A DNA stretch of 64,000 nucleotides from Candidatus Nanoarchaeia archaeon (GCA_041653515.1 JBAZFG010000002.1:125632-189631), one strand, 5' to 3'. Counted from the stretch's first letter, positions 181 through 38,328 are shown. Notes: a model not told the origin generated them from the letters alone. Numbers and translations are program-made.

Positions 181-1704
181 CTAAGAAGCTTTTTCTGATT
201 TATTACCAGCAATTTTTAACTGCCTTGGTTTAAGTAAATCACTTGTTAGATAAGTTTTTAGTTTTTCAATGCTAAACTTCAAGTTATTGAAACTCATAAG
301 TTTGGGCAATATGTTACTGCAAAAGAAGATTGGATTTAATATATGTTTGATTCTTGTTTTATAAAATCTTTGTCTTGCTTCACCAACCAATTTGTTTAAT
401 TCACTTTCACTGAACTTTTTAGTTGGATAATAAGCATAAGATGTTTCTGCATCAGGAATTTCACTATTTAGCAATCCTTCTTTTTTGTATATATCATACA
501 ACTCAGTTCCTGTATAAGGTTGTGCGATATAAAATATTGCGTGGTCTATTCCAGATTCACAAGCATACTTAATCGTTTTTTCTATATCATCACGTGTTTC
601 ATAGGGGAATCCAATTATAAAATTAGCAGTAGTCCAAATACCTTTTTTGTTCATATATCTAATTAATCTTTTTGTTTTTTCAAGGTCAACAGGTTTTCCA
701 ATGAACTTTAATGTATTCTCAGAGCCGGATTCAATAGGCATACACATTCTATAAAACCCTGCTTTCTTCATTATATCTATTGTTTCTTCATCAAGAATCC
801 ATACACTTAATCCTGCAGGTGCGTTTAAAGTAATCTTCAAATTAGCTTTAATTATCAAATTGCATACTTCTTTAACTCTTTTTTTGTTAAGTATAAATGA
901 GTCGTCATAGATTACTATCTCTTTAGCGCCATATTTGTTATGTAATTCCATTATTTCTTTGAATACTCTTTTTGCAGAGTGAGGCCTCCATCTTCTTCTC
1001 CACATAGTTTTAGTGCTGCAGAAGATGCAGTTGTACGGGCAGCCTCTGCTTGTGACCATGGTACAAATCGGCTGGTTTAAAGCATAATAAAAAGTTTCTT
1101 TACCGTTTTTCATGTAAAAATCCATGTCAAGTGCATCTCTGTCCGGCAATGGAAGTGTATCAATATTATTAATTAGTGGTCTATCTTTGTTTATTATTAC
1201 TCTTCCATTACTTTTGTATGTTAATCCTAACACATTCTTTAAACTTTTCTTGTTACTAATAGCATTGAGTAGCTCTAGAGTTGTTATTTCACCTTCACCT
1301 CTTATTATGTAATCTATATAATTTAGTTTTATCAGGTTCTCATGTTCCATTGTTGGGTGAACCCCGCCGAGGATTATCTTTATAGACTTAAAATTGTCTT
1401 TCAGTACTTTGGCCAAATTAAGAGCATCATCTTTATGTATTGTAAAATTGCTTGATATGCCAATAATATCCGGTTTTATTTTATTTATTTCATTAAAAAT
1501 GTTTTTGTTGTTTATACCCACCCTGTATAAATCTTTCTTTATTCTTGTAACCTTGTTTTGATTTAAGGCTATACAGTCAATTATCTTAACTTTATGTCCG
1601 TTCTTTTTTAAAACTGCAGATATGTATGCTAAACCAAGAGGTTCAGTTATGGTTAATTTTGGGTATTTGCTTATTATTGAGGGTTGTATTAATGCTATTT
1701 TCAT
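181..1704 (-). CDS. B12-binding-domain radical SAM protein (class B rSAM)
   Basis: CxxxCxxC motif 'SRGCPYNCIFCS'; N-terminal 'LGLAYISAVLKKNGHKVKIID' Rossmann-like B12-binding segment; paralogous to 36946..38328. Confidence 0.7.
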   Translation of the reverse strand: MKIALIQPSIISKYPKLTITEPLGLAYISAVLKKNGHKVKIIDCIALNQNKVTRIKKDLYRVGINNKNIFNEINKIKPDIIGISSNFTIHKDDALNLAKVLKDNFKSIKIILGGVHPTMEHENLIKLNYIDYIIRGEGEITTLELLNAISNKKSLKNVLGLTYKSNGRVIINKDRPLINNIDTLPLPDRDALDMDFYMKNGKETFYYALNQPICTMVTSRGCPYNCIFCSTKTMWRRRWRPHSAKRVFKEIMELHNKYGAKEIVIYDDSFILNKKRVKEVCNLIIKANLKITLNAPAGLSVWILDEETIDIMKKAGFYRMCMPIESGSENTLKFIGKPVDLEKTKRLIRYMNKKGIWTTANFIIGFPYETRDDIEKTIKYACESGIDHAIFYIAQPYTGTELYDIYKKEGLLNSEIPDAETSYAYYPTKKFSESELNKLVGEARQRFYKTRIKHILNPIFFCSNILPKLMSFNNLKFSIEKLKTYLTSDLLKPRQLKIAGNKSEKAS

Positions 1705-4430
1705 TTTTTCTCCTTAATAATAAGTTTTCTTATAAACTTAACCAATTGTAAAATCATTAGATAGATTACTATAATTATAAGTGATATGTTTGTAATTAAT
1801 CTTCCTAATCCTATATTATCCTGGTTCTTATGATAAATCCTGATGCTTAATTCTCCTGTTTTATTTATGTAAAAGCTATTCATGAAATAATTAGTTTTTA
1901 TTGAGTTGAATGATTCATTGCCAATAGTGGCAACCCAGTTCTTATCGAAAGTTTCTGTTAAAGTCAAGTAAAAAGGTGAATCTATTGTAATATTCAAAAT
2001 CATTTCTGACGGATTGATTCTTATGAAATTAGTGATGTCAACATTGTTATCTTTGTTTTCATAAGTAGCATTTTCATCAAACATTATTATTGTCTTATTG
2101 CTTAACTCTGAAATCATTTCTTCATAAGTTAATTCATATTCATTATAATCAACTAATTTAATATCATTAATAATATTGTTCTTACCTTGTGAATCAATAG
2201 AAATACAATTATTATTACTGCTTAAATTAATAGTGTAATTAACAATTTTAAATTCATCCTTAATACTAGAAGTTTTGACTTCTTTTATTGTGTTATTAAT
2301 GGAAATAGAAAATCCATCATAATTTGGTCCATCAACATACCTGATTAATAATTCGTATAATCCTTCTTCATTAAGACAGATGTCAAACTTGCTGTTATTT
2401 ATTGTGTAATAACCTTTTGAGTATGTTAATAAAGTAACTATATCCAAGTCATTTAGCATAAAGCGGTATATGCTATCGAAAGACATGTCTTGTATGAACT
2501 GCGGTTTATTTTCTTGAACAATTCTTAATAGATATAAAGCATCATTATTGATTATCCTGTTAATTTCATCACTAAAAGATACTCTGCTGTTTAGCAAACC
2601 GAATAGTAAGTCATTATAACTTTTATTGCAGAATATTATCTTATCCCCGTCTGAATAATTATCAAGAAATTGATTGATAACTCCGTCTTCTTGTTCTCCA
2701 AAGAATATCAAATCATTCTTATCTAAAAAATTGTGATTTAATAATTCTTGATAAGAATCCAATGAACCAATCACTAAATTTTTATGTTCATTTATCTTAA
2801 TTTGTGATACATTATCATTTATGTAAAGAGTGACATCATCACTAAAGCTTTTGTTTTCATATGATTTAAATATTGATTTGTTTATGTACTCTTTATCATC
2901 AAAGAAGTCACCAACTAACATGAAATCATTATGTAATAAAATATATTTTATTCCTAATGCACTAAATAATTTTTTTAATTCTGAAGCATCATTTGAGTTT
3001 AATATATCAAAGTATAGTGACATTATAAACTTGAAATTTAAGTCATTGTAATTATCCTGATAGATAGTATTAAAATACATTGGGAATATTGGTATTGTAT
3101 TATTAGCCCAATCAAATACTAATTGTCCATAACTGAAAGGAAGCCACAAGGCTTTTTGAGTGTCATTTTTGAAGTAATCATTAATATCATAATAACTATT
3201 GGGTATGCTAACTGCTTTAACTTCTCCTTGATTTAATTTAAAATAACCTGATAATAATGGGCAGTTTACTACAATAATTGATACTAATACTATTGATATG
3301 ATAATTTTTTTATACTTTCTTAATTTGTTATTAATCTCCAATAGTCCACTAATAAACTGTGAAAAAAGGAAGGCATAACAAAAGCTTAATACAAAGTTTA
3401 TCTTGTCTGGCTCTCGTATCAACCAAGCCCATGAACCTAATATTGGTATTTTGTTAAGATTTGAATAAATTAATCTTAAAGGCCCAAAAGTTCCTTGGGA
3501 TAATAATAATACTAAAAGTGCTAGTAAAGTGAATGATTTGATTGATTTATCCTTTTTAATTGCTATCGCGCAGAAACTTGCAAATGGCACTATAAATGAC
3601 AATAAATAAGTTATCGGATTACTGTCAGTAGCACCCTTTAAGTAGGATCCTACAAAAAAACCATACAATCTTATTGAATTAGCAATGTTTGAGTTGCTGC
3701 TTAAGAATTCTGATTGACTAAACGGCAGGTGATATATTGTTGTATTTAATCCAGGGAGTACAAAATAACTTATTAATGGAACAAAACAAACAAGAATGAT
3801 GATCATTGTTAAAATTTTGTCTTTGAATTTATGTTTATCAATTAAAATTATGGGTAGCATACACAATGAAGTGTATATTAAATTCCTTGGGTCAAATGAC
3901 ACTATTAGTAACAATAATGACACAACTGGCGAGTATCTTTTATTTTCAAAAGATTTTATCAATGTAAGACAAATTAATGGGGCAATAGAATAACCTAATA
4001 ATATTGCAAAATAACCTAATGATGTTGTATAAACCCAATGATTTAATGTGTAAACCAGGCTTCCTGATAACGCAACTATTATCTTTTGGTTTTGTTTTAA
4101 CTTACCACTTAACTTAATTAGAAGTAAATAAGAACTAAAACTTATCAAGAAATAAACAGAGATGTACAAACATTTTGTTAAGAATTCAAGTGGCAACGGA
4201 ATTGCAGCAATTACCCTCCAAATTAAACTTTGAGGCAAGTCACCACCGCTAGGATAATTGCTTATTGGGTTCCAAGAATAAAAATAATAATTGTTTATGA
4301 TATCCTTATCAAACTGGAATACTAAGTCATTGTACAATGGTAGTCCGGGGTTAAATAATACATTGTGAGTTATTAGAACTGTAAGTAATAGTGAGTAAAC
4401 TAATCCTGTGATTAATATATTATTTTTCAT
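1701..4430 (-). CDS. large polytopic membrane protein, GT-C/YfhO-like putative glycosyltransferase with C-terminal extracytoplasmic domain
   Basis: 909 aa with many N-terminal hydrophobic helices; C-terminal motif 'FDKNWVA...NSFYINKTGELSIRIY' shared with the adjacent 950-aa ORF; 4-nt overlap with the next gene. Confidence 0.45.
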   Translation of the reverse strand: MKNNILITGLVYSLLLTVLITHNVLFNPGLPLYNDLVFQFDKDIINNYYFYSWNPISNYPSGGDLPQSLIWRVIAAIPLPLEFLTKCLYISVYFLISFSSYLLLIKLSGKLKQNQKIIVALSGSLVYTLNHWVYTTSLGYFAILLGYSIAPLICLTLIKSFENKRYSPVVSLLLLIVSFDPRNLIYTSLCMLPIILIDKHKFKDKILTMIIILVCFVPLISYFVLPGLNTTIYHLPFSQSEFLSSNSNIANSIRLYGFFVGSYLKGATDSNPITYLLSFIVPFASFCAIAIKKDKSIKSFTLLALLVLLLSQGTFGPLRLIYSNLNKIPILGSWAWLIREPDKINFVLSFCYAFLFSQFISGLLEINNKLRKYKKIIISIVLVSIIVVNCPLLSGYFKLNQGEVKAVSIPNSYYDINDYFKNDTQKALWLPFSYGQLVFDWANNTIPIFPMYFNTIYQDNYNDLNFKFIMSLYFDILNSNDASELKKLFSALGIKYILLHNDFMLVGDFFDDKEYINKSIFKSYENKSFSDDVTLYINDNVSQIKINEHKNLVIGSLDSYQELLNHNFLDKNDLIFFGEQEDGVINQFLDNYSDGDKIIFCNKSYNDLLFGLLNSRVSFSDEINRIINNDALYLLRIVQENKPQFIQDMSFDSIYRFMLNDLDIVTLLTYSKGYYTINNSKFDICLNEEGLYELLIRYVDGPNYDGFSISINNTIKEVKTSSIKDEFKIVNYTINLSSNNNCISIDSQGKNNIINDIKLVDYNEYELTYEEMISELSNKTIIMFDENATYENKDNNVDITNFIRINPSEMILNITIDSPFYLTLTETFDKNWVATIGNESFNSIKTNYFMNSFYINKTGELSIRIYHKNQDNIGLGRLITNISLIIIVIYLMILQLVKFIRKLIIKEKK

Positions 4431-7279
4431 TTATTATTACCTTTAATTTTTAGTATTACAAATAAGCATAGGGCAAAGTACCCAATAATACCAATTATGC
4501 CACCAATCAATCTGTTAAGTCTTACAATAAAACCTGAAATTATGATTATAAAAAATGATAATGCAAGTAAATTATTATCAGGTTCTTTTAAAAATAAATA
4601 AATTAAATCATTTTTGATTAATTTATTACTAAATTTTTTGAGATTAGTTTTATACACTTTGATTTTTTTTGGATAATCTTTTGCATTTTTGCCATGTTTG
4701 AATGTTAATAATATGTTAAAGCAAATTATTTTGAGAGTTGATATTGTATACACAAAAAATAATTTTATATACTTATACAAGTTTTTAGTGTGATTACTTG
4801 ACAGTATTTTTGGTAATAGGGTAATAATCAATAATATTAAAGTAACTAATGAGATACTTATCCCTGCACTGTAAGTTAATTGTTCAGACTGATACAATCT
4901 AACAGTATAACTACCCGTTTCATTAATATAAAACGCATTAGCGAACCCGTTAACTACAAAATGATTAAATTTAGTGTTATTTGATTCTGCAATCCAGTCC
5001 TCATCATAACTCTCTGAAAAGACTAAGAAGAATGGTTCACTATTGTTTACGTTGATATTGTATTCGGCAGGATTGGTTTTTATGAATGAAATGTCTGCTT
5101 CATGTACTGCATTGTTGTTTTTTTGTTCTATTGTTTCTAGATCATTACTTATTGCAATACTTGCAAGAAGGGCTTCTCCATTGCTTGTAATGTTTATCCT
5201 ATCAGTTGCGCTGCCAAAATAATGCCATGCAATATCAGTTGAATTGCTTGCTATACTATTAGCAATTATACTGCCTGTAAACTTAATGTACAACCCGCCA
5301 GAAGTGTTAATTGGTATTGTAACTATTGAATTTGGCATTAATGTGATTATTGAACTGTCAATGCCGCTGGTGTAAACAACGTTGTACCACCACCAGCCAA
5401 ATGAATAATCAAATAATCTTGCCCAGCCGTTTGAAGCATTGCTTGTTGTTATGAATTCAGAAGGCTTTAATTTAGTTGAATTGATTAACTCAGAATCAAA
5501 GGTGTTGTCATTGATTTCATCAACCAGATTGACAAGCGCGCTGTCATCTTGTTGTATTGCAAAGAAAATCGCGGGTTTTGAACAATTGTAATCAAGCAGG
5601 TTGTTAATATTAGAGTCAACTAATGAGCTGTGCTCTGCAGCGTATATTACTGGAAGACTATTATTAACCTCAAAGACTTTGATATTGTTATAACTATTCA
5701 TTGTTATTTTTGTCTCGTTTAACTGGCTCTTCAAGTAATCAGTTTTAGATAAACCAAATGATGATACAACTTCAGGGTAATTCCTCGCGTATATTGAATA
5801 ATTGCCAAATTCGGAAATAAAATCATCCCTTGATATAACATACTTAATATTTAGTAGTCTTAACAGGCTGCTTAAATTTGAGTCTGACTCACTACGTATT
5901 AAATTTGATAAAAAAGCAGTAACTCTATTGGAATCTGATTCTACACTTATAACTTGATTAAGTGATGATTTTGGTGAGTATGTAATCATAGGGTCAATGC
6001 CTGCATAATCCAATCCTGTCATGCTTATTGGCTGGTCCAAAGGGAAGTAAAGAACCCTATAATCACTAGGGTCATTAATTAATGAATTAGTTATTTCTCC
6101 ATAACCATTACTCCATTGGTAATCTTGTAACTGCCCCATAAAATTTCCTGAAAATAATGGCAGCGCAAACAATATTATTGCAATTGGAAAAAGAATCCTT
6201 TTGCTTTTTAACAGGTTATAACTTGAGCCTAATAACAGTGCATAGCAGAATGCTGGGATAAACAATAAGTGCTGTGATTCCCTAAACAAGCCAATAAGTG
6301 GTATATTCAAGAATGCTTCCCCGAATGGTGGGTTTGGGCCTTTTGATAAGAACAAACCGATTGCAGTGGTTATTATAAAAAACCATATTTGTTTATCCTT
6401 TGATTTAATGTTAGGCAACAGTAGAATTAGTATTAGTGCGCCGCCACCAATTACTGGTATTAACAGCCAGTTCCATATAGCATCAACAAAATATTTGGCA
6501 CCGATTAATAATGGCACTGCAAAAAATGGAGGGGCATTTCTTGTGATTATGTCAATGCTTGTTGAATAATTAATAGTCGAACTTGACGTGCCGAAATTTA
6601 ACAATATTGGCATTAACCAGAATGAATGGGTTAATAACAAACTTGCGGATATAACTAATGAATTAAAAAATAATTTTTTATCTCTCATGAATATAGAATA
6701 ACAAATCATCAACAAAGGCACCATTATAAAGAACTGCAATTGTGTTACAGTAAAAGTTATCAGTATTATTGAGAGAATCAAATTTGTTTTATTGTCCTTT
6801 GATTTTATGAATGACAGGAATAATAATGGTGCAAGCATGTAAGAAAACAAGTAAGTGATGTGGCCTGCGACAACCCTGTTAAAAACAATTGGGTTTAATG
6901 CATATAACAATCCAGATAATATCCCTGCTTTGTTATTCTTTAAGACATGCCTGCTTAATAAAAACATAAAATAAGCACTGCAGAATACAAATGCTACTAT
7001 TAGCATTCTAGTTAAGAAAACACCCCCCAGACCTATTGAGCTTAGTAAACCAAGGCCTGCGTAAAAAAAGAAAACGCTTTGATAGTCCCATGTTGTTCCT
7101 AAATCTCTTTCATTCCATACATAAAAAAGGTTTTCTGATCCCTTGGTTATCATCTCACCAAATTGAGGTATACTCCAGTCATGTCTGTAACCAATTGCTC
7201 CATTTGCAGCCAGAATCCTCCAGGTTACAAGAATGCTTATAATGGCGAATAAGCAGATCACTAAAAAGTTCTTTCTCAC
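4427..7279 (-). CDS. large polytopic membrane protein, tandem paralog of 1701..4430
   Basis: 950 aa, multi-TM; C-terminal 'YDEDWIAE...NAFYINETGSYTVRLY' aligns with the C-terminus of the 909-aa protein. Confidence 0.45.
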   Translation of the reverse strand: MRKNFLVICLFAIISILVTWRILAANGAIGYRHDWSIPQFGEMITKGSENLFYVWNERDLGTTWDYQSVFFFYAGLGLLSSIGLGGVFLTRMLIVAFVFCSAYFMFLLSRHVLKNNKAGILSGLLYALNPIVFNRVVAGHITYLFSYMLAPLLFLSFIKSKDNKTNLILSIILITFTVTQLQFFIMVPLLMICYSIFMRDKKLFFNSLVISASLLLTHSFWLMPILLNFGTSSSTINYSTSIDIITRNAPPFFAVPLLIGAKYFVDAIWNWLLIPVIGGGALILILLLPNIKSKDKQIWFFIITTAIGLFLSKGPNPPFGEAFLNIPLIGLFRESQHLLFIPAFCYALLLGSSYNLLKSKRILFPIAIILFALPLFSGNFMGQLQDYQWSNGYGEITNSLINDPSDYRVLYFPLDQPISMTGLDYAGIDPMITYSPKSSLNQVISVESDSNRVTAFLSNLIRSESDSNLSSLLRLLNIKYVISRDDFISEFGNYSIYARNYPEVVSSFGLSKTDYLKSQLNETKITMNSYNNIKVFEVNNSLPVIYAAEHSSLVDSNINNLLDYNCSKPAIFFAIQQDDSALVNLVDEINDNTFDSELINSTKLKPSEFITTSNASNGWARLFDYSFGWWWYNVVYTSGIDSSIITLMPNSIVTIPINTSGGLYIKFTGSIIANSIASNSTDIAWHYFGSATDRINITSNGEALLASIAISNDLETIEQKNNNAVHEADISFIKTNPAEYNINVNNSEPFFLVFSESYDEDWIAESNNTKFNHFVVNGFANAFYINETGSYTVRLYQSEQLTYSAGISISLVTLILLIITLLPKILSSNHTKNLYKYIKLFFVYTISTLKIICFNILLTFKHGKNAKDYPKKIKVYKTNLKKFSNKLIKNDLIYLFLKEPDNNLLALSFFIIIISGFIVRLNRLIGGIIGIIGYFALCLFVILKIKGNNK

Positions 7280-7287
7280 AACATTTT

Positions 7288-24356: not shown

Positions 24357-25465
24357 TTTTTCCTGACCGTTTTTTTGTAGATTGAGCAGTTAGCGCATGG
24401 GGCTGGCACTTTGCCTTTCCTTAAGCCTTCCCTTAATTCTTTGTAGTCCTTCCCAAACCAAATCTCTTTTAGTGAAAGTTCCTTAATGTTGCCAAGCGAT
24501 GTTTTCTTCTGGAAATCCCTTTGATTGGCCTCGTTTCCGACGCAGCAGGGAATAACATGTCCTGTTACGAATACGAAAGGCATTATCCATTCAATGCACT
24601 TATCCATTGGTTCCTTGTCATCTGGTACGTTGGCCCCATAGTGCATTCTTATACCATAAGAATTGGCCTTAGCCTTGACTTGCCTAAAATAAGTGTTAGG
24701 CACTTTAGTTACGAGGTTCTTTATCTCCTTGAATGGGTGTAATAATAATGTGTATATGACTTTAACGTCATCATTCATCTTAATGCTGTTAACGTAGTCC
24801 ATGAATAACGGCACTTCCTTGACGTTTATTTTGTTGACAATGAAGTGAAAGTTGACTTCCGGGAATGGTTTTTTCATTTCCTTTTTTAGTTCTATTAGCT
24901 TCTTGATGTTCTTTGTTACTACGTCAAAATTTGAGCCAACCCTTATTTTCTCGTAAGTCTCCTTTGTGGCTCCGTCAATCGAAGCCAGTATCCTATCAAC
25001 TCCTAATTCAATCAGTTTTCTTGCAATCTTTTCATTGAGGAAGATAAATGAGTCATATATCTCGACGTATATCTTCTTTTTCTTGACGTACTCTATCATC
25101 TTAAGGTAATCTTTATTTAGGAACGCTTCCCCTATCCCTGTCAGACCTATCCATTTCAAGTGTGGGAACTGGTCAATTATTCTCTTAAATTCCTCAAAGT
25201 TCATGTCCCTTGCGGGTTCACTCCAGTACGTGTGCTCGCATATTTTGCATTTGAGGTTGCACTTGGTTGTGACTTCTATTTCCATGAAAGGGGGGGTTAT
25301 ATTAAAGAACCTGCCAAGTTTTATTAGTAGCAGGTTGCTCCAGAATTTTGATTGCCATAATAAGTAGAACCATGTGTAATTATATGTTGCTTTTAGTCCT
25401 TGATGCCTTAACATGTTGTAAATAAATTTTGAGTACCTCTTGACTTTCATTATTACCTGTTTCAT
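24353..25465 (-). CDS. radical SAM / SPASM-like domain protein
   Basis: 'TTKCNLKCKICEH' CxxxCxxC; C-terminal Cys-rich 'CCVGNEAN...CANCS' auxiliary-cluster-like region. Confidence 0.6.
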   Translation of the reverse strand: MKQVIMKVKRYSKFIYNMLRHQGLKATYNYTWFYLLWQSKFWSNLLLIKLGRFFNITPPFMEIEVTTKCNLKCKICEHTYWSEPARDMNFEEFKRIIDQFPHLKWIGLTGIGEAFLNKDYLKMIEYVKKKKIYVEIYDSFIFLNEKIARKLIELGVDRILASIDGATKETYEKIRVGSNFDVVTKNIKKLIELKKEMKKPFPEVNFHFIVNKINVKEVPLFMDYVNSIKMNDDVKVIYTLLLHPFKEIKNLVTKVPNTYFRQVKAKANSYGIRMHYGANVPDDKEPMDKCIEWIMPFVFVTGHVIPCCVGNEANQRDFQKKTSLGNIKELSLKEIWFGKDYKELREGLRKGKVPAPCANCSIYKKTVRKK

Positions 25466-25490: not shown

Positions 25491-26573
25491 TTAAATCTTT
25501 TTATTGGCTTTGAATTCCTTTGAGTACTTTCTGGTTAGTTTAATGTATTCATTTCCGTACTCGTGGCTTGGCTCTATCTCGGTTCCCTCGTGCCACTCGT
25601 TGAAGCTAGTGATTGACACTACTTGAGGGTTCTTCTTTATAGCTGCTTCCCAGCAGCGTTTGTAAACACTGCCTTTTTCCCTTGACACGACTGCGTAATG
25701 CTTGATGCCGAGTGTTATTAATATCCACTTGAAGTCGCCCCTGGCTAATCGCTTGAGTAATTTGACAAATAAAGTCCACACCCGTTTGATTGAGAAATTG
25801 CTTTTTAACCCTTCAGCTAACTCGCCGATGAATTCTTTTGGTATCTCTTTGACCCCTGAGTCATCATAGCCTGGCATGACTGTCAGCACGCAAATCTTCT
25901 TGTGCTTGTCGCACATGCCTTTTATTTTTGAGTACTCAGTGAACATGTTTTTCTTGTTGAATAAAGCGTCAAGGTAAGTGTACCTGAAAGCGCCGTCAAA
26001 ATTACTAACCCATTCTTCATACTTGGAGTCAACTATTAAGTAAGCGCCGGTCGCTTTCTTAACTAAATCCCTGACTACCAGCCACTTGTTGAGTCCTAAT
26101 TGCATTAGCACTCTTGCGTATAATATGATGAACGGCTTGCCGTTAACCCTGAAAAATGATTTGTGCTTGCCATACTTGTTAATCAGTCCAATTAAGTGTT
26201 TGGCCACTTTCTCCGGCTCAAAACTATTGGGCAGGTCCTCGTAATAGAATGTTAGTTTAACGCCGGGCGTCTTGTCAGCGATGCTTAGCATTTTTTCGAA
26301 GTTTTTGTGCGTGTGAGTCATCTTCTGCTCCCAGATTGAGACGAGTAACGCGTTAATGCCTGCTTCTTTTGCCATCCTTAAGTGCTCTTTTATCACTGCT
26401 GGGTCGCTTGAGTCATAAGCGCCGAGTAACGGGTGGTCGGCTGACGCAATATCAGGCAAGCCCTTTATTTTCCTGTCAGGGTCATGGCCGCCTTGTTTCC
26501 ATTTAAGCCATTGCTTTGAGTGTTTTGGGCTGCCAAACCATGGGTAATAAAAAGCGAGCACTTTCTTGTTCAT
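25491..26573 (-). CDS. glycoside-hydrolase-like TIM-barrel protein (GH99/GH71-like)
   Basis: N-terminal 'AFYYPWFG...W.KW' motif reminiscent of the GH99 endo-alpha-mannosidase family; weak. Confidence 0.3.
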   Translation of the reverse strand: MNKKVLAFYYPWFGSPKHSKQWLKWKQGGHDPDRKIKGLPDIASADHPLLGAYDSSDPAVIKEHLRMAKEAGINALLVSIWEQKMTHTHKNFEKMLSIADKTPGVKLTFYYEDLPNSFEPEKVAKHLIGLINKYGKHKSFFRVNGKPFIILYARVLMQLGLNKWLVVRDLVKKATGAYLIVDSKYEEWVSNFDGAFRYTYLDALFNKKNMFTEYSKIKGMCDKHKKICVLTVMPGYDDSGVKEIPKEFIGELAEGLKSNFSIKRVWTLFVKLLKRLARGDFKWILITLGIKHYAVVSREKGSVYKRCWEAAIKKNPQVVSITSFNEWHEGTEIEPSHEYGNEYIKLTRKYSKEFKANKKI

Positions 26574-27634
26574 AGAACTTTTTTGAAATTGCTTCCATTT
26601 ATAATTATTCTGTTTAATCCTTTCATGTGCGCTTTGACCCCAAATCTTTCTGCGTTTTTTTTGCAGTCGCTTGCCTTGAATTTATTATGCCAGTTCTGCA
26701 ATACCCTGATTAAGTTCTCCTCGTATGGCTCGTTTATTAGCACGCCTGTTTTGTTAGTGATTGTTTCCTTGAACCCTCCGTCATTGACTGCGATGACTGG
26801 TTTGCCTGACGCATTAGCTTCAACTGGCACTAAGCCAAAGTCCTCGCCTTTGTTTAATTGGATGACTGCCTTGCACTCTGAGTAATATTTTCTTAATTCA
26901 GTCTCACTTAACCGGCCGAGTAACTTAATGTTTTTGTTAGCCATTGCTTTTAGTTCTTCCATCATCATGCCAGTGCCTGCTATCATTAATTCTTGTCCTG
27001 TCTTATTGAACACTTTGATTAGTGTGTCAATGCGCTTGACTGGCTCGAGTCTTGATACGCAAAAGAAGTAATCTTTTGACTTGGCTTGTTTGTAGTCTTT
27101 TAGTTCGGTTGGCGGGTAAATCACTATTATTTTTTTGTCTGGGTAAATCTTTTGCATAATATTTTTCATGTAATAACTGTTAGCGATTACAACATCAATT
27201 TTCTTGACTGCTTTTTGGTCTGCTCTTATTGTTAATTTACTTACTAAGTTGACTAACCAATTCTTTTTTTCCAATCCATAACTGACTTTGTTTGGGTGTT
27301 CTGAGTACCAGATTGTTTTTTTACCTGACTTGCTTGCAACAACGTGACTGTTAGGTGTTTCAGCAAGCACTAAATCATATTGCTTTAGGAACGAGCCTTT
27401 TTTCAGGCACCAGAATAAGTTTACTATTGTCCTAAACATTGGCAGTTTTCGTGCCCAAGGCATTAATTCTATTATTCTTGCTTCCTTGAAGTATTCTGGA
27501 TAAACTTTTGAGTCATAGACGCTGGTATAAATTGTCACGTCATGTTTTTTTGATAATTCCTGATAGTGAATACCTGTTACTTTTTCTGCCCCGCCAATAT
27601 TTGTTAGGAATGGCACGATTATTGCTATTTTCAC
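26570..27634 (-). CDS. GT4-family glycosyltransferase
   Basis: 'EDFGLVPVEANASGKPVIAVNDGG' E-x7-E motif. Confidence 0.7.
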   Translation of the reverse strand: MKIAIIVPFLTNIGGAEKVTGIHYQELSKKHDVTIYTSVYDSKVYPEYFKEARIIELMPWARKLPMFRTIVNLFWCLKKGSFLKQYDLVLAETPNSHVVASKSGKKTIWYSEHPNKVSYGLEKKNWLVNLVSKLTIRADQKAVKKIDVVIANSYYMKNIMQKIYPDKKIIVIYPPTELKDYKQAKSKDYFFCVSRLEPVKRIDTLIKVFNKTGQELMIAGTGMMMEELKAMANKNIKLLGRLSETELRKYYSECKAVIQLNKGEDFGLVPVEANASGKPVIAVNDGGFKETITNKTGVLINEPYEENLIRVLQNWHNKFKASDCKKNAERFGVKAHMKGLNRIIINGSNFKKVL

Positions 27635-33958: not shown

Positions 33959-35506
33959 TTGTTAATGCTAGATAAGTTATGGCAGTACGTAGTTGATAAT
34001 AAAGCGTTCTTCATAGTTATTCCATTAATATTGTTATGGACTCGTTTTGATTACGAGTCTTTTGCGATGAGCGTGACCCCGTTTGGCGTGCCGTTAGATG
34101 ATGCTTATATTGGTTATCAGTTCGCGCGCAACTTTGCTCAGGGCAGAGTATTAGAATATAATGTTGGCGAGCAGACTACTGGCGCGTCAACCTTGTTATG
34201 GCCTTTGGTGATGGCATTGATTTACTTATTGACTGGTTACTTATACCCTAATTACGTGATTGCTTTTCTAGTCATATCAAAAGTCACTGCCACAATCCTT
34301 TACTTCTTGTCAATCACTGGCATTTATTATTTGAGCCAGAAGTATTATTTCAAGAATAAGTTTGCTAGCGTGATGCTCTGCTCGTTCCTTGCTTTAGAGT
34401 TGCACATGCTTTGGGGCACGCTGAGTGGGATGGAGATGTCATTGTTTGCTTTCCTAATAACGTTCATGCTGATTGCTTTGCGTGAGAATAAGATTAAGCT
34501 TGGCGCAGTGCTTGGTGGTTTGATTGGTTTAACAAGACCTGAGGGCATGGTTTTGTACCCTGGGTTAATTCTCTTATTATTCTTCTTTAAGTTAGTTAAG
34601 ACTAAGAAAATAGTTTTTAGGGAAGTTAAAGAATTATTATTGCAATTAATTATTTTTGTTGTGATAATGATCCCTTGGCCAATCCTTAATTACATGATTT
34701 CAGGCAAGCCTTTGCCAGCGACTTTTTACATGAAAGGCGGCGTGGTTAGTCTTGCTAATTTGTTGGGTGGTTTCACGTTCGTGTTTGACGTGCTTAATTT
34801 GTTTGGCAGTGATTACGCTTTGTCATTATTATTCGTGGCTGGCGTGATTATTTATTTTGCGCTGAAGAAAGAGTTCAGTCCTGAGGCCTTACTTGCTATA
34901 ATCTTCATGGTTCTTTACGGCACAGCAATCCCTAACCTGACTGGTTTTGGTCGTTATTACATGCCTGTTTTCCCAATAATCGCTTTGGTTGCTTTCTACT
35001 CATTCAAGTTAATTGAGGGTGTTTTACCTTCTAAGTTTAAGAAGTTTGGTTCAGCGTTATTAATGCTCGTGCCAATGATAATAATCACTGTTGTGGCTTC
35101 ACCAATGGCTAATTATCAATTAAGTAATTATGATGTTTGGAAACAAGTTTATGGACATAACGTTTATAGTATTAATCATTTTGAGGTGGCAATGGCTTAC
35201 TGGTTGATTGATAATTCACAAATAACTGATGTTGTTGGCACTTGTGATATTGGTGCGCCTAGTTTTATTGCTAACCGCTACTTGGTTGATGTGTTTGGTT
35301 TGATTGGGCCTGAGGTCAGGTCTTGGAATGGAACTTATGATAGTTACTTGCGTTATCGCAACGTTACTTATTATATTGATTACCCTGCTAACGCTAATGA
35401 TAAAGTTAAGGCTAATTGCACTATTGTTTACAATACTACTTACTTGTCAATGATTACTATTACTGCCGGTTACCAGATGGCTATCTATAAATGCGAGTGG
35501 CTTTAA
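33959..35506 (+). CDS. polytopic membrane protein, GT-C-like
   Basis: About 12 TM helices; 'PLDDAYIGYQFARN' acidic loop motif near the N-terminus. Confidence 0.4.
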   Translation: MLMLDKLWQYVVDNKAFFIVIPLILLWTRFDYESFAMSVTPFGVPLDDAYIGYQFARNFAQGRVLEYNVGEQTTGASTLLWPLVMALIYLLTGYLYPNYVIAFLVISKVTATILYFLSITGIYYLSQKYYFKNKFASVMLCSFLALELHMLWGTLSGMEMSLFAFLITFMLIALRENKIKLGAVLGGLIGLTRPEGMVLYPGLILLLFFFKLVKTKKIVFREVKELLLQLIIFVVIMIPWPILNYMISGKPLPATFYMKGGVVSLANLLGGFTFVFDVLNLFGSDYALSLLFVAGVIIYFALKKEFSPEALLAIIFMVLYGTAIPNLTGFGRYYMPVFPIIALVAFYSFKLIEGVLPSKFKKFGSALLMLVPMIIITVVASPMANYQLSNYDVWKQVYGHNVYSINHFEVAMAYWLIDNSQITDVVGTCDIGAPSFIANRYLVDVFGLIGPEVRSWNGTYDSYLRYRNVTYYIDYPANANDKVKANCTIVYNTTYLSMITITAGYQMAIYKCEWL

Positions 35507-36897
35507 GCAGAGTTATTAATGTAGAATACTATTAGTTGCGCTTGAGCTGCTGATGGGTATGCTTTGATTGGCATGATGAACGAGTAGTTAAGAGTGTAAG
35601 CATAAGCAGGGTATTGTTCGTAAGCGCTGATAACTAGGAATGAGTAATTACTTACTTGTTGGAGGAATAATTCTTCAGTGGCTGGGAACGCGTCAACTGT
35701 TTTCTCGCTGTAATAAGTTAGTTGTGGCACGCTGTTAGCCATGACGTTGCCTTCGTAAGGCAGTAAGAACTCGCCTGCTTGCTTGACATATAAGTATGAA
35801 TCCTTAGCATTATTAATGCTTGTTAACCCTGTTGGCAGGTTCTCAATAATAATGATTATTGTTATTATCGCTAACGCGTAATTAATGATTTGCTTGTTTT
35901 TACTCACGTAACTAATAATGAAGCTTGCGCCAAGAATAGCTGATAAGCAAGCAAAAGGCAGTAAGTGTATTAGGAACCTAACTTCTTTGACGCTGGTTAA
36001 CAATGAGTAGAACGCTAAGTAAATGAATAAATTAAGTGCTATGAACTGCACTTTCTTATTCTTTAATTTGAAGATGATTGGTATGATGCCAATGAACACT
36101 AGTAAACCCATTAATATACCATAATTAAACAGCATGCTAGTTATGTAATAGAACATGTCACCTGCTTGCGCTCCACCAGTCGCGTTAACATTAAATGATA
36201 GGAATGATAGTGGCGTGTATACTGGGTTGTTGAATACTATGATGTCATAAATCATTAGTGGCGCGTAACCGATTAACGCGCCAAACAACCAATAATAATC
36301 CTTTAATTTTTTCTCTTTATTAATTAATGAGTAAGCAAGGTATACTACGCTCCCAATTATTGCCGTGAACTTAATACTAGCTGCTAAACCCAATAATAAA
36401 CCACTAGGCAACCGCTTGCCTTTAATGAATAATAACGCGCTTAGCACTAATAGGAACGCGCTTGGCACATCAATAGTGAACCGTAGTGACCAGTAAAGGA
36501 AGACCCATTGAAAACACATTATTAACCCTGTAATAATCCCATACTTCTCGCCTAATAATTCCTTACCTAAGTAATAAGACGCGATTGTTAAGCCCAACCC
36601 GAATAAGATGTTAATGAACCTGATTACTAATTCATTATAACCAAAAGGCAATGATAACCCATATAATATTGCTGGGTAAACGATTGACCTGCCATCCCAC
36701 CAACCAGTTGTTGGCGTGCCAATAAACAAGCTTTTAGTCATCACTAAGTATTGAGCCTCATCCCACCAGACAGTGCTATAAGCACTAATTAATGGCAGTC
36801 TTGTTATCAGGAAGACCGCACTGATTAAACCAACCCAGAAGTACTTATTATTCACTAAATCCTTTAAGTTAATCTCGTCATTATCATTCATATTCAA
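35503..36897 (-). CDS. GT-C fold membrane glycosyltransferase (ArnT/PMT-like)
   Basis: 'WWDEAQYLVMTKS' DE motif in the first loop; multi-TM. Confidence 0.5.
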   Translation of the reverse strand: MNMNDNDEINLKDLVNNKYFWVGLISAVFLITRLPLISAYSTVWWDEAQYLVMTKSLFIGTPTTGWWDGRSIVYPAILYGLSLPFGYNELVIRFINILFGLGLTIASYYLGKELLGEKYGIITGLIMCFQWVFLYWSLRFTIDVPSAFLLVLSALLFIKGKRLPSGLLLGLAASIKFTAIIGSVVYLAYSLINKEKKLKDYYWLFGALIGYAPLMIYDIIVFNNPVYTPLSFLSFNVNATGGAQAGDMFYYITSMLFNYGILMGLLVFIGIIPIIFKLKNKKVQFIALNLFIYLAFYSLLTSVKEVRFLIHLLPFACLSAILGASFIISYVSKNKQIINYALAIITIIIIIENLPTGLTSINNAKDSYLYVKQAGEFLLPYEGNVMANSVPQLTYYSEKTVDAFPATEELFLQQVSNYSFLVISAYEQYPAYAYTLNYSFIMPIKAYPSAAQAQLIVFYINNSA

Positions 36898-36945
36898 TCA
36901 CTTCTTTATTATTAATAGTCATTCTTAGTTAATAGTTTTAACCTT

Positions 36946-38328
36946 TTAGTTTAAGAGAATCTTTGAAGGTTTAAAGAAATTATTCAGAATGTTCCTAATA
37001 GGTGCTTCCCTGTGTGAGATATTATTGAATATATAAGCTAGTTTGGTAAAGTCTATTAACTCATCGAATGGAATCTTTTCTTTCAGCAGGTAAGTGCCTT
37101 TCCTAATCATGTTGTCATAATCAAGCCATTCCATTGGTTTGATAACACCTTTCTTCTTGAGTAATTCATAATAATCTGCGCCAGGGTCAGGGGTAAATAC
37201 GTAGAAATGAGCAAAGTTAGTTTTATTCTTAATGGCAAAATTAATTGTTTTAATTATAGAATCCCTTGTTTCACCTGGTGCCCCAATGATGTGGCTTGCA
37301 CTAATTTCTATACCAAAAGCCTTTAATTTTTCAATACCTTGGCTTATCTGCCTGATTGTTAAGCATTTGTTCATTGACTTAAGTATTTCATCATCCCCTG
37401 ATTCAACCCCAACAAAAGCTCTCTTGTAACCTGTTTTATGCATTATATTGAGCAAGTCATTATTTATTGTGTCAAGCCGAGTGTTACTGCCCCATGTGAT
37501 GTCAAGTTTTTCTTTTTTAATTAGACTTGTGAATTCAGTGATAAACTTATGATTAGCTGTCATTGTATCATCATAAAACATAATCTTATTGGATTTAGTG
37601 ACGTCAATAACCTGTTTTATTTCATTGATAACACTTGATGGGCTTCTAAAATTAACCTTTTTTCCAAACATTTTTTTAGAAGCACAAAACTTGCAACCAA
37701 AAGGGCATCCTCTTGAAGCTATTAATACATTATAAGTATCTTCTGCCCCAAGTTTTCTATGATTACTTGGTTTGTATTTATCTAATGGGAATAAATCTCT
37801 GGCTGGGAAAGGCAGGTCATTCAGGTCAGTACTGGTTGGTTTTGTGGGGTTTAGGATGATCTTCTTGCCTTTTTTGAATACAATACCATTAACCTCTTCT
37901 AACCTTTGGTTAGCCAGTATCTTAACAATGGTTTCTTCTCCTTCACCTAGCACGCCTATATCAAAACAGTTTAATGAAATGGTTTCTAAAGGTTCTGATG
38001 TGATGTGAATGCCGCCTAGAATTATCTTTGCATTAGTTTTTGATTTTATTTCACTGGCTATCTTAATCGTATTCTTCATAAGAGGGGTTGTTGATGTAAG
38101 ACCTATAAACTTAATGTCCTTTGAGTTAATCCTTTTTATTACATCCTCAATAGTGAATTCTTCAACATTTAAGTCAAGGCATTCAACCCTATAACCTGCT
38201 TTTCTTACGCTTGCGGCAATGTATGCTAGTCCAAGGGGTAAGCTTACTGTTTGGTTTTCCTGTCTTGAGATGTTGAAATGTTTTTTTTCAAAAAAATCTT
38301 TTTGCGGGGGATTAATGAGCAATAACAT
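36946..38328 (-). CDS. B12-binding-domain radical SAM protein (class B rSAM)
   Basis: 'SRGCPFGCKFCAS'; N-terminal 'LPLGLAYIAASVRKAGYRVECLD'; paralog of 181..1704. Confidence 0.7.
   Translation of the reverse strand: MLLLINPPQKDFFEKKHFNISRQENQTVSLPLGLAYIAASVRKAGYRVECLDLNVEEFTIEDVIKRINSKDIKFIGLTSTTPLMKNTIKIASEIKSKTNAKIILGGIHITSEPLETISLNCFDIGVLGEGEETIVKILANQRLEEVNGIVFKKGKKIILNPTKPTSTDLNDLPFPARDLFPLDKYKPSNHRKLGAEDTYNVLIASRGCPFGCKFCASKKMFGKKVNFRSPSSVINEIKQVIDVTKSNKIMFYDDTMTANHKFITEFTSLIKKEKLDITWGSNTRLDTINNDLLNIMHKTGYKRAFVGVESGDDEILKSMNKCLTIRQISQGIEKLKAFGIEISASHIIGAPGETRDSIIKTINFAIKNKTNFAHFYVFTPDPGADYYELLKKKGVIKPMEWLDYDNMIRKGTYLLKEKIPFDELIDFTKLAYIFNNISHREAPIRNILNNFFKPSKILLN

What the first reader, a model, noticed from the sequence alone, without database searches (positions are those of the whole stretch)
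181..38328. Glycosylation island bracketed by two paralogous B12-binding radical SAM genes, four rSAM in total
The class-B rSAM paralogs at 181..1704 and 36946..38328 have the same orientation and share the N-terminal 'LGLAYIA' B12 segment plus CxxxCxxC. They sit at both edges of the ~38-kb glycan locus. A third B12-like rSAM (23247..24356) and a SPASM rSAM (24353..25465) lie inside it. Cobalamin-dependent rSAM enzymes are typically C-methyltransferases or ring-forming enzymes. Their enrichment in an archaeal surface-glycan locus suggests unusual methylated or branched sugars, or a connection to lipid-carrier modification.
Basis: partly seen in the sequence, partly recalled or inferred. Interest (0 to 1): 0.6.

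Follow-up and report, generated by a model that had tools for sequence, protein, structure and literature searches.

The report
Radical-SAM sugar-tailoring modules in glycan island
A surface-glycan gene island of an uncultured DPANN (Nanoarchaeia) archaeon carries at least five radical-SAM enzymes in separate modules, and two of them belong to an undescribed four-gene cassette, shared with more than a dozen bacterial phyla, that probably makes and attaches an unusual sugar.

Summary
All four radical-SAM (rSAM) genes exist at the stated coordinates, all on the minus strand. A (181-1704) and D (36946-38328) are true B12-binding + rSAM proteins and share the LGLAYI and CxxxCxxC motifs. They are only 33% identical, and each has closer relatives in other phyla.

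The "bracketing" does not hold. The island runs at least 10 kb past the window start, where a fifth B12-rSAM lies, and on the right it reaches a second STT3 gene at 42958.

B (23247-24356) has no Pfam B12 domain. Its model shows a reduced B12-like fold, and its best structural match is AprD4, a sugar diol dehydratase that does not bind cobalamin. C (24353-25465) is a reduced SPASM/twitch-type rSAM.

The main result is a conserved cassette, C-B-GT4-sugar-1-phosphate nucleotidyltransferase. It occurs in 26 loci from more than 12 bacterial phyla and DPANN archaea, always in polysaccharide loci, and I found no paper describing it.

A is translationally coupled to two GT-C-like membrane proteins. 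D's conserved partner is a NUDIX hydrolase, not a glycosyltransferase.

The sugar-tailoring reading is supported. C-methylation, cobalamin use and the actual chemistry remain inferred.

The parts
181..1704 (-). rSAM-A. Class-B type radical SAM protein: full B12-binding domain, rSAM core and a roughly 100-aa helical C-terminal tail.
1701..4430 (-). 909-aa polytopic membrane protein (about 9 TM segments). No Pfam family. Paralog of the next gene and co-operonic with rSAM-A.
   Evidence: No Pfam, NCBIfam or PDB sequence hit. 25-28% identical to the 950-aa neighbour. Homologous to a 939-aa protein that sits between two B12-rSAMs in a Pseudomonadota MAG (E 5e-21) and to the 829-aa protein left of the window. 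GC 27%.
4427..7279 (-). 950-aa polytopic membrane protein (about 11 TM segments), weakly GT-C/AftD-like. First gene of the 950-909-rSAM-A unit.
   Evidence: Weak Pfam GT-C_AftD hit (E 4.7e-5, below cutoff). NCBIfam MmpA 35.9 bits. Weak match to DUF6311 in L001. 4-nt overlap with the next gene.
20313..21041 (+). Cassette sugar-1-phosphate nucleotidyltransferase (242 aa).
   Evidence: Pfam NTP_transferase. It is the specific best window match of the cassette NTP genes of L010-L012 (28-43% identity). A homolog is present in 20 of 26 B loci. Closest NCBIfam is AglF UDP-glucose pyrophosphorylase at 130 bits, cutoff 400.
21051..22289 (+). Cassette glycosyltransferase GT4a (412 aa).
   Evidence: Pfam Glycos_transf_1 and Glyco_transf_4. 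Specific ortholog of the GT4 that follows B in other loci (32-35% identity over the full length, against 22-28% for other window GT4s). Present in 24 of 26 B loci.
22255..23286 (+). DUF362 protein fused to a 2x[4Fe-4S] ferredoxin domain, wedged between GT4a and rSAM-B. Specific to this window, not part of the conserved cassette.
   Evidence: Pfam DUF362 plus Fer4 families. No homolog in the 26 cassette loci at E<1e-10. DUF362 shares Pfam clan CL0471 with LarA-type epimerases (PMC11770544).
23247..24356 (-). rSAM-B. AprD4-like radical SAM protein with a reduced B12-like N-terminal domain and an invariant CCYP motif.
24353..25465 (-). rSAM-C. Radical SAM protein with a reduced SPASM/twitch-type C-terminal domain, translationally coupled to B.
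   Evidence: Pfam Radical_SAM plus SPASM. rSAM motif C69/C73/C76 plus only five conserved auxiliary Cys in 20 orthologs. Best PDB sequence match is BtrN, E 1e-8. Orthologs of 41-52% identity lie directly upstream of B in other loci. 4-nt overlap with B.
25491..26573 (-). GH99 / WbsX-like protein, immediately upstream of C in the same transcription direction.
   Evidence: Pfam Glyco_hydro_99 at 141 bits and Glyco_tran_WbsX. 25-nt gap to C. Not found in the other cassette loci.
26570..27634 (-). GT4 glycosyltransferase, first gene of the GT4-WbsX-C-B unit.
   Evidence: Pfam Glycos_transf_1 and Glyco_transf_4. 4-nt overlap with the next gene.
35503..36897 (-). GT-C type GT22/PMT_2 membrane glycosyltransferase, 48 nt downstream of rSAM-D.
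   Evidence: Pfam Glyco_transf_22 and PMT_2. Nine TM segments. A D-like rSAM lies near GT22/PMT_2 genes in DPANN locus L009.
36946..38328 (-). rSAM-D. Class-B type radical SAM protein (B12-binding domain plus rSAM core).
   Evidence: Pfam B12-binding at residues 31-137 and Radical_SAM at 203-365. Below all NCBIfam cutoffs; best are HpnJ 177, BchE 164 and PhpK 150 bits. Close orthologs (44-51% identity) occur in DPANN and CPR genomes outside glycan loci.
38570..38986 (-). MutT-like NUDIX hydrolase, the conserved neighbour of the D subfamily.
   Evidence: Pfam NUDIX. 39% identical (E 7e-34) to the NUDIX gene adjacent to the D ortholog in a Patescibacteria MAG, and 31-34% identical to NUDIX genes near the D ortholog in L172/L173.
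12863..14770 (+). STT3/AglB-type oligosaccharyltransferase number 1 (635 aa). Marks the island as a protein-glycosylation locus.
   Evidence: Pfam STT3 and STT3-PglB_core. NCBIfam archaeo_STT3 at 98 bits, below cutoff.
18075..19508 (-). Wzx-type flippase.
   Evidence: Pfam Polysacc_synt_3 and Polysacc_synt, 12 TM segments.
39122..40141 (-). PF00953 (WecA/AglH-type) priming phosphosugar transferase. Lies to the right of D, so the island extends beyond D.
   Evidence: Pfam Glycos_transf_4 at 86 bits.
40340..42958 (-). STT3 paralog number 2 (872 aa), the right-hand limit of glycan genes seen in the window.
   Evidence: Pfam STT3. Followed by SpoIIM-like, Orc1/Cdc6 and FEN1 housekeeping genes.

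Best explanation
The region is a mosaic surface/N-glycan biosynthesis island of a DPANN (Nanoarchaeia) archaeon. Its radical-SAM genes are not a bracketing pair. They belong to at least three separate modules.

Module 1 (20313-25465, plus the two upstream genes to 27634). This is a conserved sugar-tailoring cassette.
- A dedicated nucleotidyltransferase activates a sugar-1-phosphate.
- The translationally coupled pair C (BtrN-like core, reduced SPASM/twitch domain) and B (AprD4-like, reduced B12-like domain, probably no cobalamin) carry out radical chemistry on unactivated sugar carbons. The most likely reactions are oxidation, dehydration or epimerisation, giving a deoxy, keto or rearranged sugar.
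- The dedicated GT4a transfers that sugar onto the lipid-linked glycan.
- In this window a DUF362-ferredoxin fusion has been inserted. It may supply electrons to the clusters or add an epimerisation step.

Module 2 (181-7279). Two GT-C-like polytopic membrane proteins are translationally coupled to rSAM-A, a full class-B enzyme. A probably modifies the sugar or glycan handled by those membrane proteins. Methylation is the commonest class-B reaction. The fifth rSAM, E, left of the window is a similar add-on.

Module 3 (35503-38986). This is NUDIX, rSAM-D and a GT22/PMT_2 gene. D's conserved partner across DPANN and CPR genomes is the NUDIX hydrolase, so D most likely acts on a nucleotide-linked substrate. 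It is only loosely tied to the island.

Shown: domain content, folds, gene order, and conservation of the cassette and of the D-NUDIX pair.
Inferred: the substrates, the reaction types, cobalamin use, and the order of steps.
For: Island identity: STT3 x2, Wzx, a PF00953 primer, many GT2/GT4/GT-C genes, NTP-transferases and PGM/PMM. The organism is a Candidatus Nanoarchaeia MAG.

Cassette:
- L010-L012 show C-B-GT4-NTP_transferase with overlapping or adjacent genes in an archaeon, a Nitrospirae MAG and a Margulisiibacteriota MAG.
- The window orthologs are specifically 24353-25465, 23247-24356, 21051-22289 and 20313-21041.
- Among 26 loci holding a B ortholog, 22 have C, 24 have GT4a, 20 have the NTP-transferase and at least 13 have extra class-B rSAMs.
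- Of the 113 other neighbours, 24 are GT4, 10 GT2, 8 SDR epimerase/dehydratases, 6 Wzx and 6 methyltransferases.

Folds:
- AprD4 does not bind cobalamin (PMC12931638).
- C's best solved relative is BtrN.
- Both AprD4 and BtrN act on aminoglycoside sugars or cyclitols. This is established knowledge, not tested here.

A module:
- 4-nt overlaps link the 950-aa gene, the 909-aa gene and A.
- A homologous 939-aa protein lies between B12-rSAMs in L004, and a DUF6311 protein follows one in L001.
- A has a full B12-binding fold.

D: its orthologs in L007, L008 and L172-174 lack glycosyltransferase neighbours. A NUDIX gene recurs, 39% identical between the CPR MAG and the window.
Against: - There is no biochemical evidence for any member of these families, and none of the loci comes from a cultured organism. 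No glycan structure can therefore be matched to the cassette.
- No AprD3-like reductase is a conserved cassette member, and none was seen in the window.
- C and B could act on the glycan after transfer, or on a non-sugar substrate.
- D is only 48 nt from a GT22 gene. More distant D-like proteins (27-41% identity) are strongly glycan-associated, so D may still be a glycan enzyme.
- The D-NUDIX pairing rests on only four loci.
- The GT-C assignment of the 909-aa and 950-aa proteins is weak and below Pfam cutoffs.
Confidence: 0.55

Rival explanations
1. All the B12-like rSAMs (A, B, D and E) are cobalamin-dependent C-methyltransferases, and they give the glycan C-methylated or branched sugars.
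For: A and D (and E, by precomputed Pfam) have true B12-binding domains. A's N-terminal domain superposes on MetH and corrinoid-protein domains. C-methyltransferases are the largest characterised class-B group, and carbohydrates are known substrates (PMC12931638). Class-I methyltransferases co-occur in many homologous loci, which fits heavily methylated glycans.
Against: No rSAM reaches the cutoff of any methylase family. The top sub-threshold hits include the non-methylases BchE and HpnJ. B lacks a Pfam B12 domain and the GGxH and GEGE motifs shared by A and D, and its best structural match is the non-cobalamin dehydratase AprD4. Cobalamin acquisition by this DPANN organism is unknown.
Confidence: 0.25
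2. rSAM-D and the NUDIX hydrolase form a nucleotide-directed pair, for nucleoside or nucleotide modification or salvage, or a defence-type function. The pair merely lies next to the glycan island.
For: The three closest D orthologs lie beside NDK plus NUDIX (L007), an ATP-cone protein (L008), or an overlapping P-loop kinase-like gene plus IMPase, HAD and NUDIX (L172-174). None has a glycosyltransferase neighbour. The NUDIX genes are 39% identical between the CPR MAG and the window. There are weak PADLOC candidate-system hits, PDC-M51A for D and PDC-S07 for the NUDIX. OxsB/OxsA is a precedent for a class-B rSAM working with a phosphohydrolase on nucleotides; this comes from established knowledge and was not tested here.
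Against: D sits 48 nt upstream of a GT22 gene on the same strand. Broader D-like proteins are glycan-associated. The PADLOC scores are low and generic. NUDIX enzymes also hydrolyse NDP-sugars, so the pair could still serve glycan synthesis. Only three independent contexts were seen.
Confidence: 0.3
3. The rSAMs act on the lipid carrier or on membrane lipids, in the manner of GrsA, Tes or the ladderane enzymes, rather than on sugars.
For: C's rSAM core weakly matches the GDGT synthase Tes (7tol, E 4e-4). A and D hit the 'lipid biosynthesis B12-binding/radical SAM' model at 122-126 bits. A phytoene-desaturase-like FAD oxidoreductase lies in the island at 31184-32422.
Against: Those scores are far below the cutoff of 360 and lower than for other class-B families. 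The conserved partners are a GT4 and a sugar nucleotidyltransferase. The cassette occurs mostly in bacteria, which use undecaprenol and have no archaeal lipids.
Confidence: 0.05
4. C, as a SPASM-type enzyme, together with B matures a peptide or protein (a RiPP or an S-layer protein), and the glycosyltransferases then decorate the product.
For: SPASM and twitch enzymes are mostly peptide or protein maturases. C's best NCBIfam hits are maturase families such as the W-cofactor oxidoreductase maturase at 155 bits. GT4a weakly hits TIGR04157 glyco_rSAM_CFB, a glycosyltransferase family named for its rSAM association.
Against: All those hits are below cutoff. No conserved small ORF or precursor gene appears in the cassette. 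The conserved fourth member is a sugar nucleotidyltransferase, and the loci are Wzx-type polysaccharide loci. C's best solved relative, BtrN, is a carbohydrate dehydrogenase.
Confidence: 0.07

Closest known systems
AprD4 (PDB 6fd2), the radical SAM 1,2-diol dehydratase of apramycin biosynthesis
   Different: By sequence B is not a member: NF033070 scores 43.9 bits against a cutoff of 500. B's N-terminal domain is shorter (83 alignable residues) and carries an invariant CCYP motif plus three further invariant Cys. B is paired with a SPASM/twitch rSAM, a GT4 and a nucleotidyltransferase in cell-surface polysaccharide loci, not with an AprD3-type reductase in an antibiotic cluster.
Class-B (cobalamin-dependent) radical SAM enzymes: MgmA (9ccb), TsrM, CysS, TokK, and the BchE, HpnJ, PhpK and Sden_1168 families
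   Different: Every curated model is missed by a wide margin. The best are 219 of 575 bits for A and 177 of 578 for D. The gene context is polysaccharide/N-glycan loci, GT-C-like membrane proteins or a NUDIX gene, which is not described for any characterised member. The 2026 review lists no polysaccharide-locus enzyme.
BtrN (PDB 4m7t), the twitch-domain radical SAM dehydrogenase of butirosin biosynthesis
   Same: It is the best solved sequence relative of C (E 1e-8 over the rSAM core). Like a twitch enzyme, C keeps too few auxiliary Cys (five) for two full SPASM clusters. BtrN oxidises a carbohydrate-type secondary alcohol.
   Different: The similarity is limited to residues 59-170. C is 100 aa longer, with an N-terminal extension and a Pfam-recognisable SPASM domain. 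No structural model of C could be made, because no permitted alignment was available.
Archaeal Agl N-glycosylation loci and bacterial Wzx/Wzy O-antigen and capsule loci
   Same: AglB/STT3, a flippase, a priming PF00953 transferase, GT2/GT4 genes and nucleotide-sugar genes are clustered. The island is mosaic in GC content, 27-44%, as is typical of variable glycan loci.
   Different: The described Agl pathways use class-I SAM methyltransferases and SDR-type sugar enzymes. To my knowledge, and in the literature searches run here, no radical-SAM step has been reported in them.

Membership tests
Radical SAM superfamily | CxxxCxxC cluster motif within a PF04055 domain scoring above the gathering threshold | tested here: met
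   A scores 106 bits, D 94.2, B 70.3 and C 60.0, against a cutoff of 29.5. Motifs: CPYNCIFC in A, CPFGCKFC in D, CPFQCIYC in B, and C69/C73/C76 in C.
Class-B (B12-binding) radical SAM | N-terminal PF02310 B12-binding domain above the gathering threshold | tested here: met
   This row covers A and D only. A scores 75.4 bits and D 76.9 bits, cutoff 32.1. E carries PF02310 in the precomputed annotation. B is covered by the next row.
Class-B (B12-binding) radical SAM, applied to rSAM-B (23247-24356) | Recognisable B12-binding domain by sequence or fold | tested here: inconclusive
Class-B (B12-binding) radical SAM | Actual binding and use of cobalamin | not testable with these tools
   This needs purified protein (UV-vis spectroscopy, metal analysis). 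No cobalamin uptake or salvage genes were recognised in the 64-kb window or the 10-kb flank.
Defined class-B equivalogs (BchE, HpnJ, HpnR, PhpK, Sden_1168, MgmA/MJ_0865, ladderane/lipid, BzaD, KedN5, TsrM-type) | Score above the NCBIfam curated cutoff | tested here: not met
   The best for A is 219.5 of 575 bits (Sden_1168), for D 176.9 of 577.6 (HpnJ), and for B 93.5 of 577.6 (HpnJ, core only).
AprD4 family radical SAM diol dehydratase | Sequence membership (NF033070, cutoff 500) and an AprD3-type reductase partner | tested here: not met
SPASM-domain radical SAM | PF13186 domain, plus the seven to eight Cys that ligate two auxiliary [4Fe-4S] clusters | tested here: inconclusive
   PF13186 scores 49.3 bits, cutoff 21.5. 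Only five auxiliary Cys (C290, C307, C308, C357, C360) are conserved at 90% or more in 20 orthologs. That fits one cluster, twitch-like, better than two.
   A scores 35-46 bits and D 37-58 bits on MiaB/RimO/MtaB models whose cutoffs are 251-357. That is far below their class-B scores. HemN-type hits for B are about 26 bits.
Archaeal N-glycosylation (Agl-type) locus | AglB/STT3 oligosaccharyltransferase clustered with a flippase, a priming transferase, glycosyltransferases and nucleotide-sugar genes | tested here: met
   STT3 at 12863-14770 and 40340-42958, Wzx at 18075-19508, PF00953 at 39122-40141, more than 8 GT2/GT4 genes, and 4 NTP-transferases. The archaeo_STT3 model is matched below its cutoff, 98 of 450 bits.
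Conserved C-B-GT4-NTP cassette (defined in this analysis) | Orthologs of all four genes within a few kb, with C directly upstream of B | tested here: met
   All four window genes lie within 20313-25465, and C overlaps B by 4 nt. In the window the GT4a-NTP half is inverted relative to C-B and a DUF362-ferredoxin gene is inserted.

The most novel reading that the evidence does not exclude
The C-B-GT4-nucleotidyltransferase cassette encodes a so-far undescribed radical route to an unusual sugar in primary cell-surface glycans. The product would be deoxygenated, keto, epimerised or rearranged. An AprD4-like, cobalamin-free rSAM and a twitch-like rSAM would do the chemistry, and a dedicated GT4 would install the sugar. 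The cassette has spread by horizontal transfer across more than 12 bacterial phyla and DPANN archaea. Full class-B rSAMs such as A, D and E would be modular add-ons that further alkylate the glycans of uncultivated microbes.
Probability: 0.3. Interest if true: 0.7.

Novelty: new variant of a known kind. Interest (0 to 1): 0.55.

Why it matters
Radical-SAM tailoring of sugars is known almost only from antibiotic pathways, in enzymes such as AprD4, BtrN, GenK and DesII. Here relatives of those enzymes form a tightly conserved cassette with its own nucleotidyltransferase and glycosyltransferase. The cassette sits inside ordinary surface-polysaccharide and N-glycan loci of many uncultivated bacterial phyla and of DPANN archaea.

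If the cassette makes a new sugar, three things follow.
- It would add a reaction type to cell-envelope glycobiology.
- It would explain some unidentified residues in environmental glycans. One candidate is the 174-Da unit of the anammox S-layer glycan; this is a lead only.
- It would give rSAM enzymologists a four-gene system that can be tested directly.

The work also corrects the picture of the island. The rSAM genes are modular, horizontally acquired add-ons, not a bracketing pair of duplicates.

Tried and rejected
- Local duplication or 'bracket' idea. Rejected. A, D and E are 28-33% identical to each other, and each is closer to foreign proteins. The flank L005 shows the island continuing past the window start.
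- Assignment to a named class-B family through NCBIfam. No cutoff was reached.
- PDB sequence searches for the 909-aa and 950-aa proteins. No hit at E<1.
- Defence-system reading through PADLOC. Only weak, generic hits.
- Literature searches for B12-rSAM or SPASM enzymes in polysaccharide, O-antigen, capsule or DPANN glycosylation contexts, and for AprD4 homologs. Nothing relevant was found.
- The metagenome scan for close D orthologs returned only relatives of 27-41% identity. The D-NUDIX pairing therefore rests on the few contigs found by exact look-up.
- tRNA scan of the window. No tRNA genes.
- DUF362 as a conserved cassette member. Rejected: it is absent from all 26 loci.
- Foldseek against AFDB, to look for cultured-organism homologs of B. 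The library was unavailable.
- A structure of C could not be predicted with an alignment.
- The Kuenenia S-layer glycan paper (PMC5088730). It reports methylated HexNAc and a 174-Da unit but gives no genetic link. I kept it as a lead only.

Full report
**1. What is in the sequence**

- A is 181-1704 (507 aa), D is 36946-38328 (460 aa), B is 23247-24356 (369 aa) and C is 24353-25465 (370 aa).
- Pfam gives B12-binding plus Radical_SAM for A and D, Radical_SAM alone for B, and Radical_SAM plus SPASM for C.
- A and D align over 407 residues at 33% identity (E 1e-59). The alignment includes PLGLAYISA / PLGLAYIAA and the CxxxCxxC motifs.
- B matches A and D only over the rSAM core, at 29-30% identity, apart from a short MSLAYIA stretch. 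C is unrelated to B.

The surrounding genes confirm a glycan island.
- Transfer and export genes: STT3/AglB, a Wzx flippase, GT2, GT4 and GT-C genes, and a GH99/WbsX-like protein.
- Nucleotide-sugar genes: four sugar nucleotidyltransferases, PGM/PMM, an HddA-like GHMP kinase and a WecB-like epimerase.
- Also present are two DUF362 proteins.

Exact matches in the protein database name the source as a 'Candidatus Nanoarchaeia archaeon' MAG, a DPANN archaeon, on a 191,793-bp contig. Housekeeping genes further right are archaeal: Orc1/Cdc6, FEN1, NucS and aIF-2B family.

**2. The bracketing is not real**

- A Logan contig of the same organism (L005) extends about 10 kb beyond the window start. It continues with a GT2, two class-I methyltransferases, a GT4, an 829-aa paralog of the 909/950-aa proteins, a thymidylate-kinase-like gene, a fifth B12-rSAM (E, 456 aa) and a GT1.
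- To the right of D come a NUDIX gene, a PF00953 priming transferase and a second STT3 ending at 42958.
- A, D and E are 28-33% identical to each other. A reaches 47-48% identity to bacterial proteins and D reaches 49-51% to DPANN and CPR proteins.
- Gene GC content is mosaic: 27-32% for the A unit, 43-44% for most of the B cassette, and 34% for D and the NUDIX gene.
- These are separately acquired family members, not a flanking duplication.

**3. The B/C pair belongs to a conserved cassette**

- The B family is about 50% identical over its whole length, including the N-terminus. None of the 120 listed members has a precomputed Pfam B12 domain.
- Three contexts were read: an archaeon with an STT3 gene, a Nitrospirae MAG and a Margulisiibacteriota MAG. 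All show SPASM-rSAM, then B, then a GT4, then an NTP-transferase.
- BLAST shows the window counterparts are specifically C, B, the GT4 at 21051-22289 and the nucleotidyltransferase at 20313-21041, not the other window paralogs.
- A scan of GTDB species genomes added 23 more loci with B orthologs, all from MAGs. The taxa include Omnitrophota, Nitrospirae, Margulisiibacteriota, Gammaproteobacteria, Planctomycetota/Brocadiaceae, Elusimicrobia, Gemmatimonadota, Actinomycetes, Vulcanimicrobiota, Desulfobacterales, TA06, Pacebacteria and Micrarchaeia.
- Over the 26 loci, C is present in 22, the GT4 in 24 and the nucleotidyltransferase in 20. Several of the misses are contig ends. At least 13 loci also carry full-length class-B rSAMs, usually just upstream of C.
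- The other neighbours are dominated by GT4 (24 of 113), GT2 (10), SDR epimerase/dehydratases (8), Wzx (6) and methyltransferases (6).
- In the window the cassette is split into two convergent halves, with a DUF362-2x[4Fe-4S] gene inserted. One half is NTP, GT4a and DUF362-Fdx on the plus strand. The other is GT4, WbsX-like, C and B on the minus strand.

**4. Folds**

- The B model is confident (pLDDT 92.5).
- A and D share the GGxH and GEGE motifs. B lacks both. B instead has an invariant CCYP and three more invariant Cys.
- C keeps the rSAM triad plus only five conserved auxiliary Cys, and its best solved relative is BtrN.
- The 2026 review states that AprD4 does not bind cobalamin and lists no polysaccharide-locus enzyme. 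9ccb is MgmA.
- None of the four proteins reaches any NCBIfam cutoff. Class-B models outscore MiaB, RimO and HemN models by a wide margin.

**5. A and D contexts**

- A is translationally coupled to the 909-aa and 950-aa polytopic proteins by 4-nt overlaps. These two are paralogs. They are homologous to a 939-aa protein lying between B12-rSAMs in a Pseudomonadota MAG, and weakly to DUF6311 and GT-C_AftD.
- A-family loci L001, L003 and L004 are polysaccharide loci with up to five class-B rSAMs. L006 is not.
- D's close orthologs lie next to different genes, and none has a glycosyltransferase neighbour.
  - L007 (Patescibacteria): NDK and NUDIX.
  - L008: an ATP-cone protein.
  - L172-174: an overlapping P-loop kinase-like gene with IMPase, HAD and NUDIX genes nearby.
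- The L007 NUDIX is 39% identical to the window NUDIX directly upstream of D.
- More distant D-like proteins (27-41% identity) are clearly glycan-associated and often occur in groups of class-B rSAMs.

**6. Interpretation**

The best-supported view is a modular one.
- A conserved radical sugar-tailoring and transfer cassette: C, B, GT4a and the NTP-transferase.
- A class-B rSAM coupled to GT-C-like membrane proteins: A, with E as a similar add-on.
- A D-NUDIX pair, probably acting on a nucleotide-linked substrate.

The general sugar-tailoring inference is well supported by conserved gene order. The specific chemistry is inferred from the nearest solved relatives and is unproven. That covers dehydration, oxidation or epimerisation for B and C, and methylation for A, D and E.

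The rivals are discussed with their evidence in the rival-explanations section: all-methylases, lipid or carrier modification, peptide maturation, and a D-NUDIX pair unrelated to glycans.

**7. Novelty**

Six literature searches found no description of these cassettes. The Kuenenia S-layer glycan has methylated HexNAc and an unidentified 174-Da residue, and Brocadiaceae MAGs carry the cassette. This is a lead, not evidence.

I rate the finding a new variant of a known kind. It is radical-SAM sugar tailoring, but it takes the form of a conserved cassette in primary cell-surface glycan loci.

Noticed in passing
L005:19018-20388 (minus strand in L005; about 7.5-9 kb beyond the window start): A fifth B12-binding rSAM (E, 456 aa; 32% identical to A, 28% to D) lies between a GT1 gene and a thymidylate-kinase-like gene whose start overlaps it. 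The island therefore has at least five rSAM genes.
   Followed up: partly
window 7288-7998 (minus strand): Two abutting in-frame ORFs of 102 aa and 133 aa are separated by a single stop codon. The 133-aa ORF has only the C-terminal part of a GT1/GT4 domain. This looks like a decayed glycosyltransferase pseudogene at the junction between the low-GC A unit and the rest of the island. It is followed by about 490 nt with no ORF of at least 100 aa.
   Followed up: partly
window 22255-23286 (+) and 32819-33880 (-): The island holds two DUF362 proteins, one of them fused to a 2x[4Fe-4S] ferredoxin domain. DUF362 shares Pfam clan CL0471 with the LarA (nickel-pincer) 2-hydroxy-acid racemases/epimerases (PMC11770544). 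They could be sugar or sugar-acid epimerases, or redox partners. They are absent from the other cassette loci.
   Followed up: partly
window 12863-14770 (+) and 40340-42958 (-): There are two divergent STT3/AglB paralogs of 635 aa and 872 aa, about 26 kb apart. This suggests two oligosaccharyltransferases with different glycan or acceptor specificities.
   Followed up: no
window 1-7300 compared with 20300-24400: GC content differs strongly: 27-32% for the 950-909-rSAM-A unit against 43-44% for the cassette genes. Wzx plus GT2 (18075-20279) are 32-35%, and D plus NUDIX are 34%. The mosaic points to repeated horizontal acquisition.
   Followed up: partly
window 36946-38986; L007:8001-9897; L172/L173: The class-B rSAM plus NUDIX gene pair is conserved between a Patescibacteria (CPR) MAG and DPANN archaea. 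The rSAMs are 44-50% identical and the NUDIX genes up to 39%. In other loci the pair has nucleotide-kinase-type neighbours (NDK, AAA_18/AAA_28, an ATP-cone protein). This may be a nucleotide-directed function shared by small-genome symbionts.
   Followed up: partly
window 11826-12827 (-) and 8490-9173 (-): An HddA-like GHMP sugar kinase (218 bits, cutoff 600) and an HddC-like guanylyltransferase (158 bits, cutoff 300) are present, both below cutoff. They suggest a kinase/nucleotidyltransferase salvage route to an NDP-heptose or a related sugar.
   Followed up: no
window 31184-32422 (+): An FAD amine-oxidase/phytoene-desaturase-like protein is the only island protein that passes an NCBIfam cutoff (PRK07233 'hypothetical protein', 273 bits against 252). 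Its role in a glycan locus is unknown. It might act on a polyprenol or on a sugar.
   Followed up: no
L028 and L031 (Brocadiaceae MAGs): Anammox-family MAGs carry the B-GT4-NTP cassette, and L028 also carries C. The Kuenenia stuttgartiensis S-layer O-glycan contains an unidentified 174-Da residue and methylated HexNAc (PMC5088730). No link was tested.
   Followed up: no
window 43774-44838 (-): An Orc1/Cdc6 gene lies directly beside the right end of the glycan island, next to a SpoIIM-like membrane protein. A replication origin may be nearby. It was not examined.
   Followed up: no
window 21051-22289 (+): The cassette GT4a gives a weak hit (39.6 bits, cutoff 400) to TIGR04157 'glyco_rSAM_CFB', a glycosyltransferase family named for its association with a radical SAM gene in Bacteroidota. 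This may be a distant parallel system.
   Followed up: no
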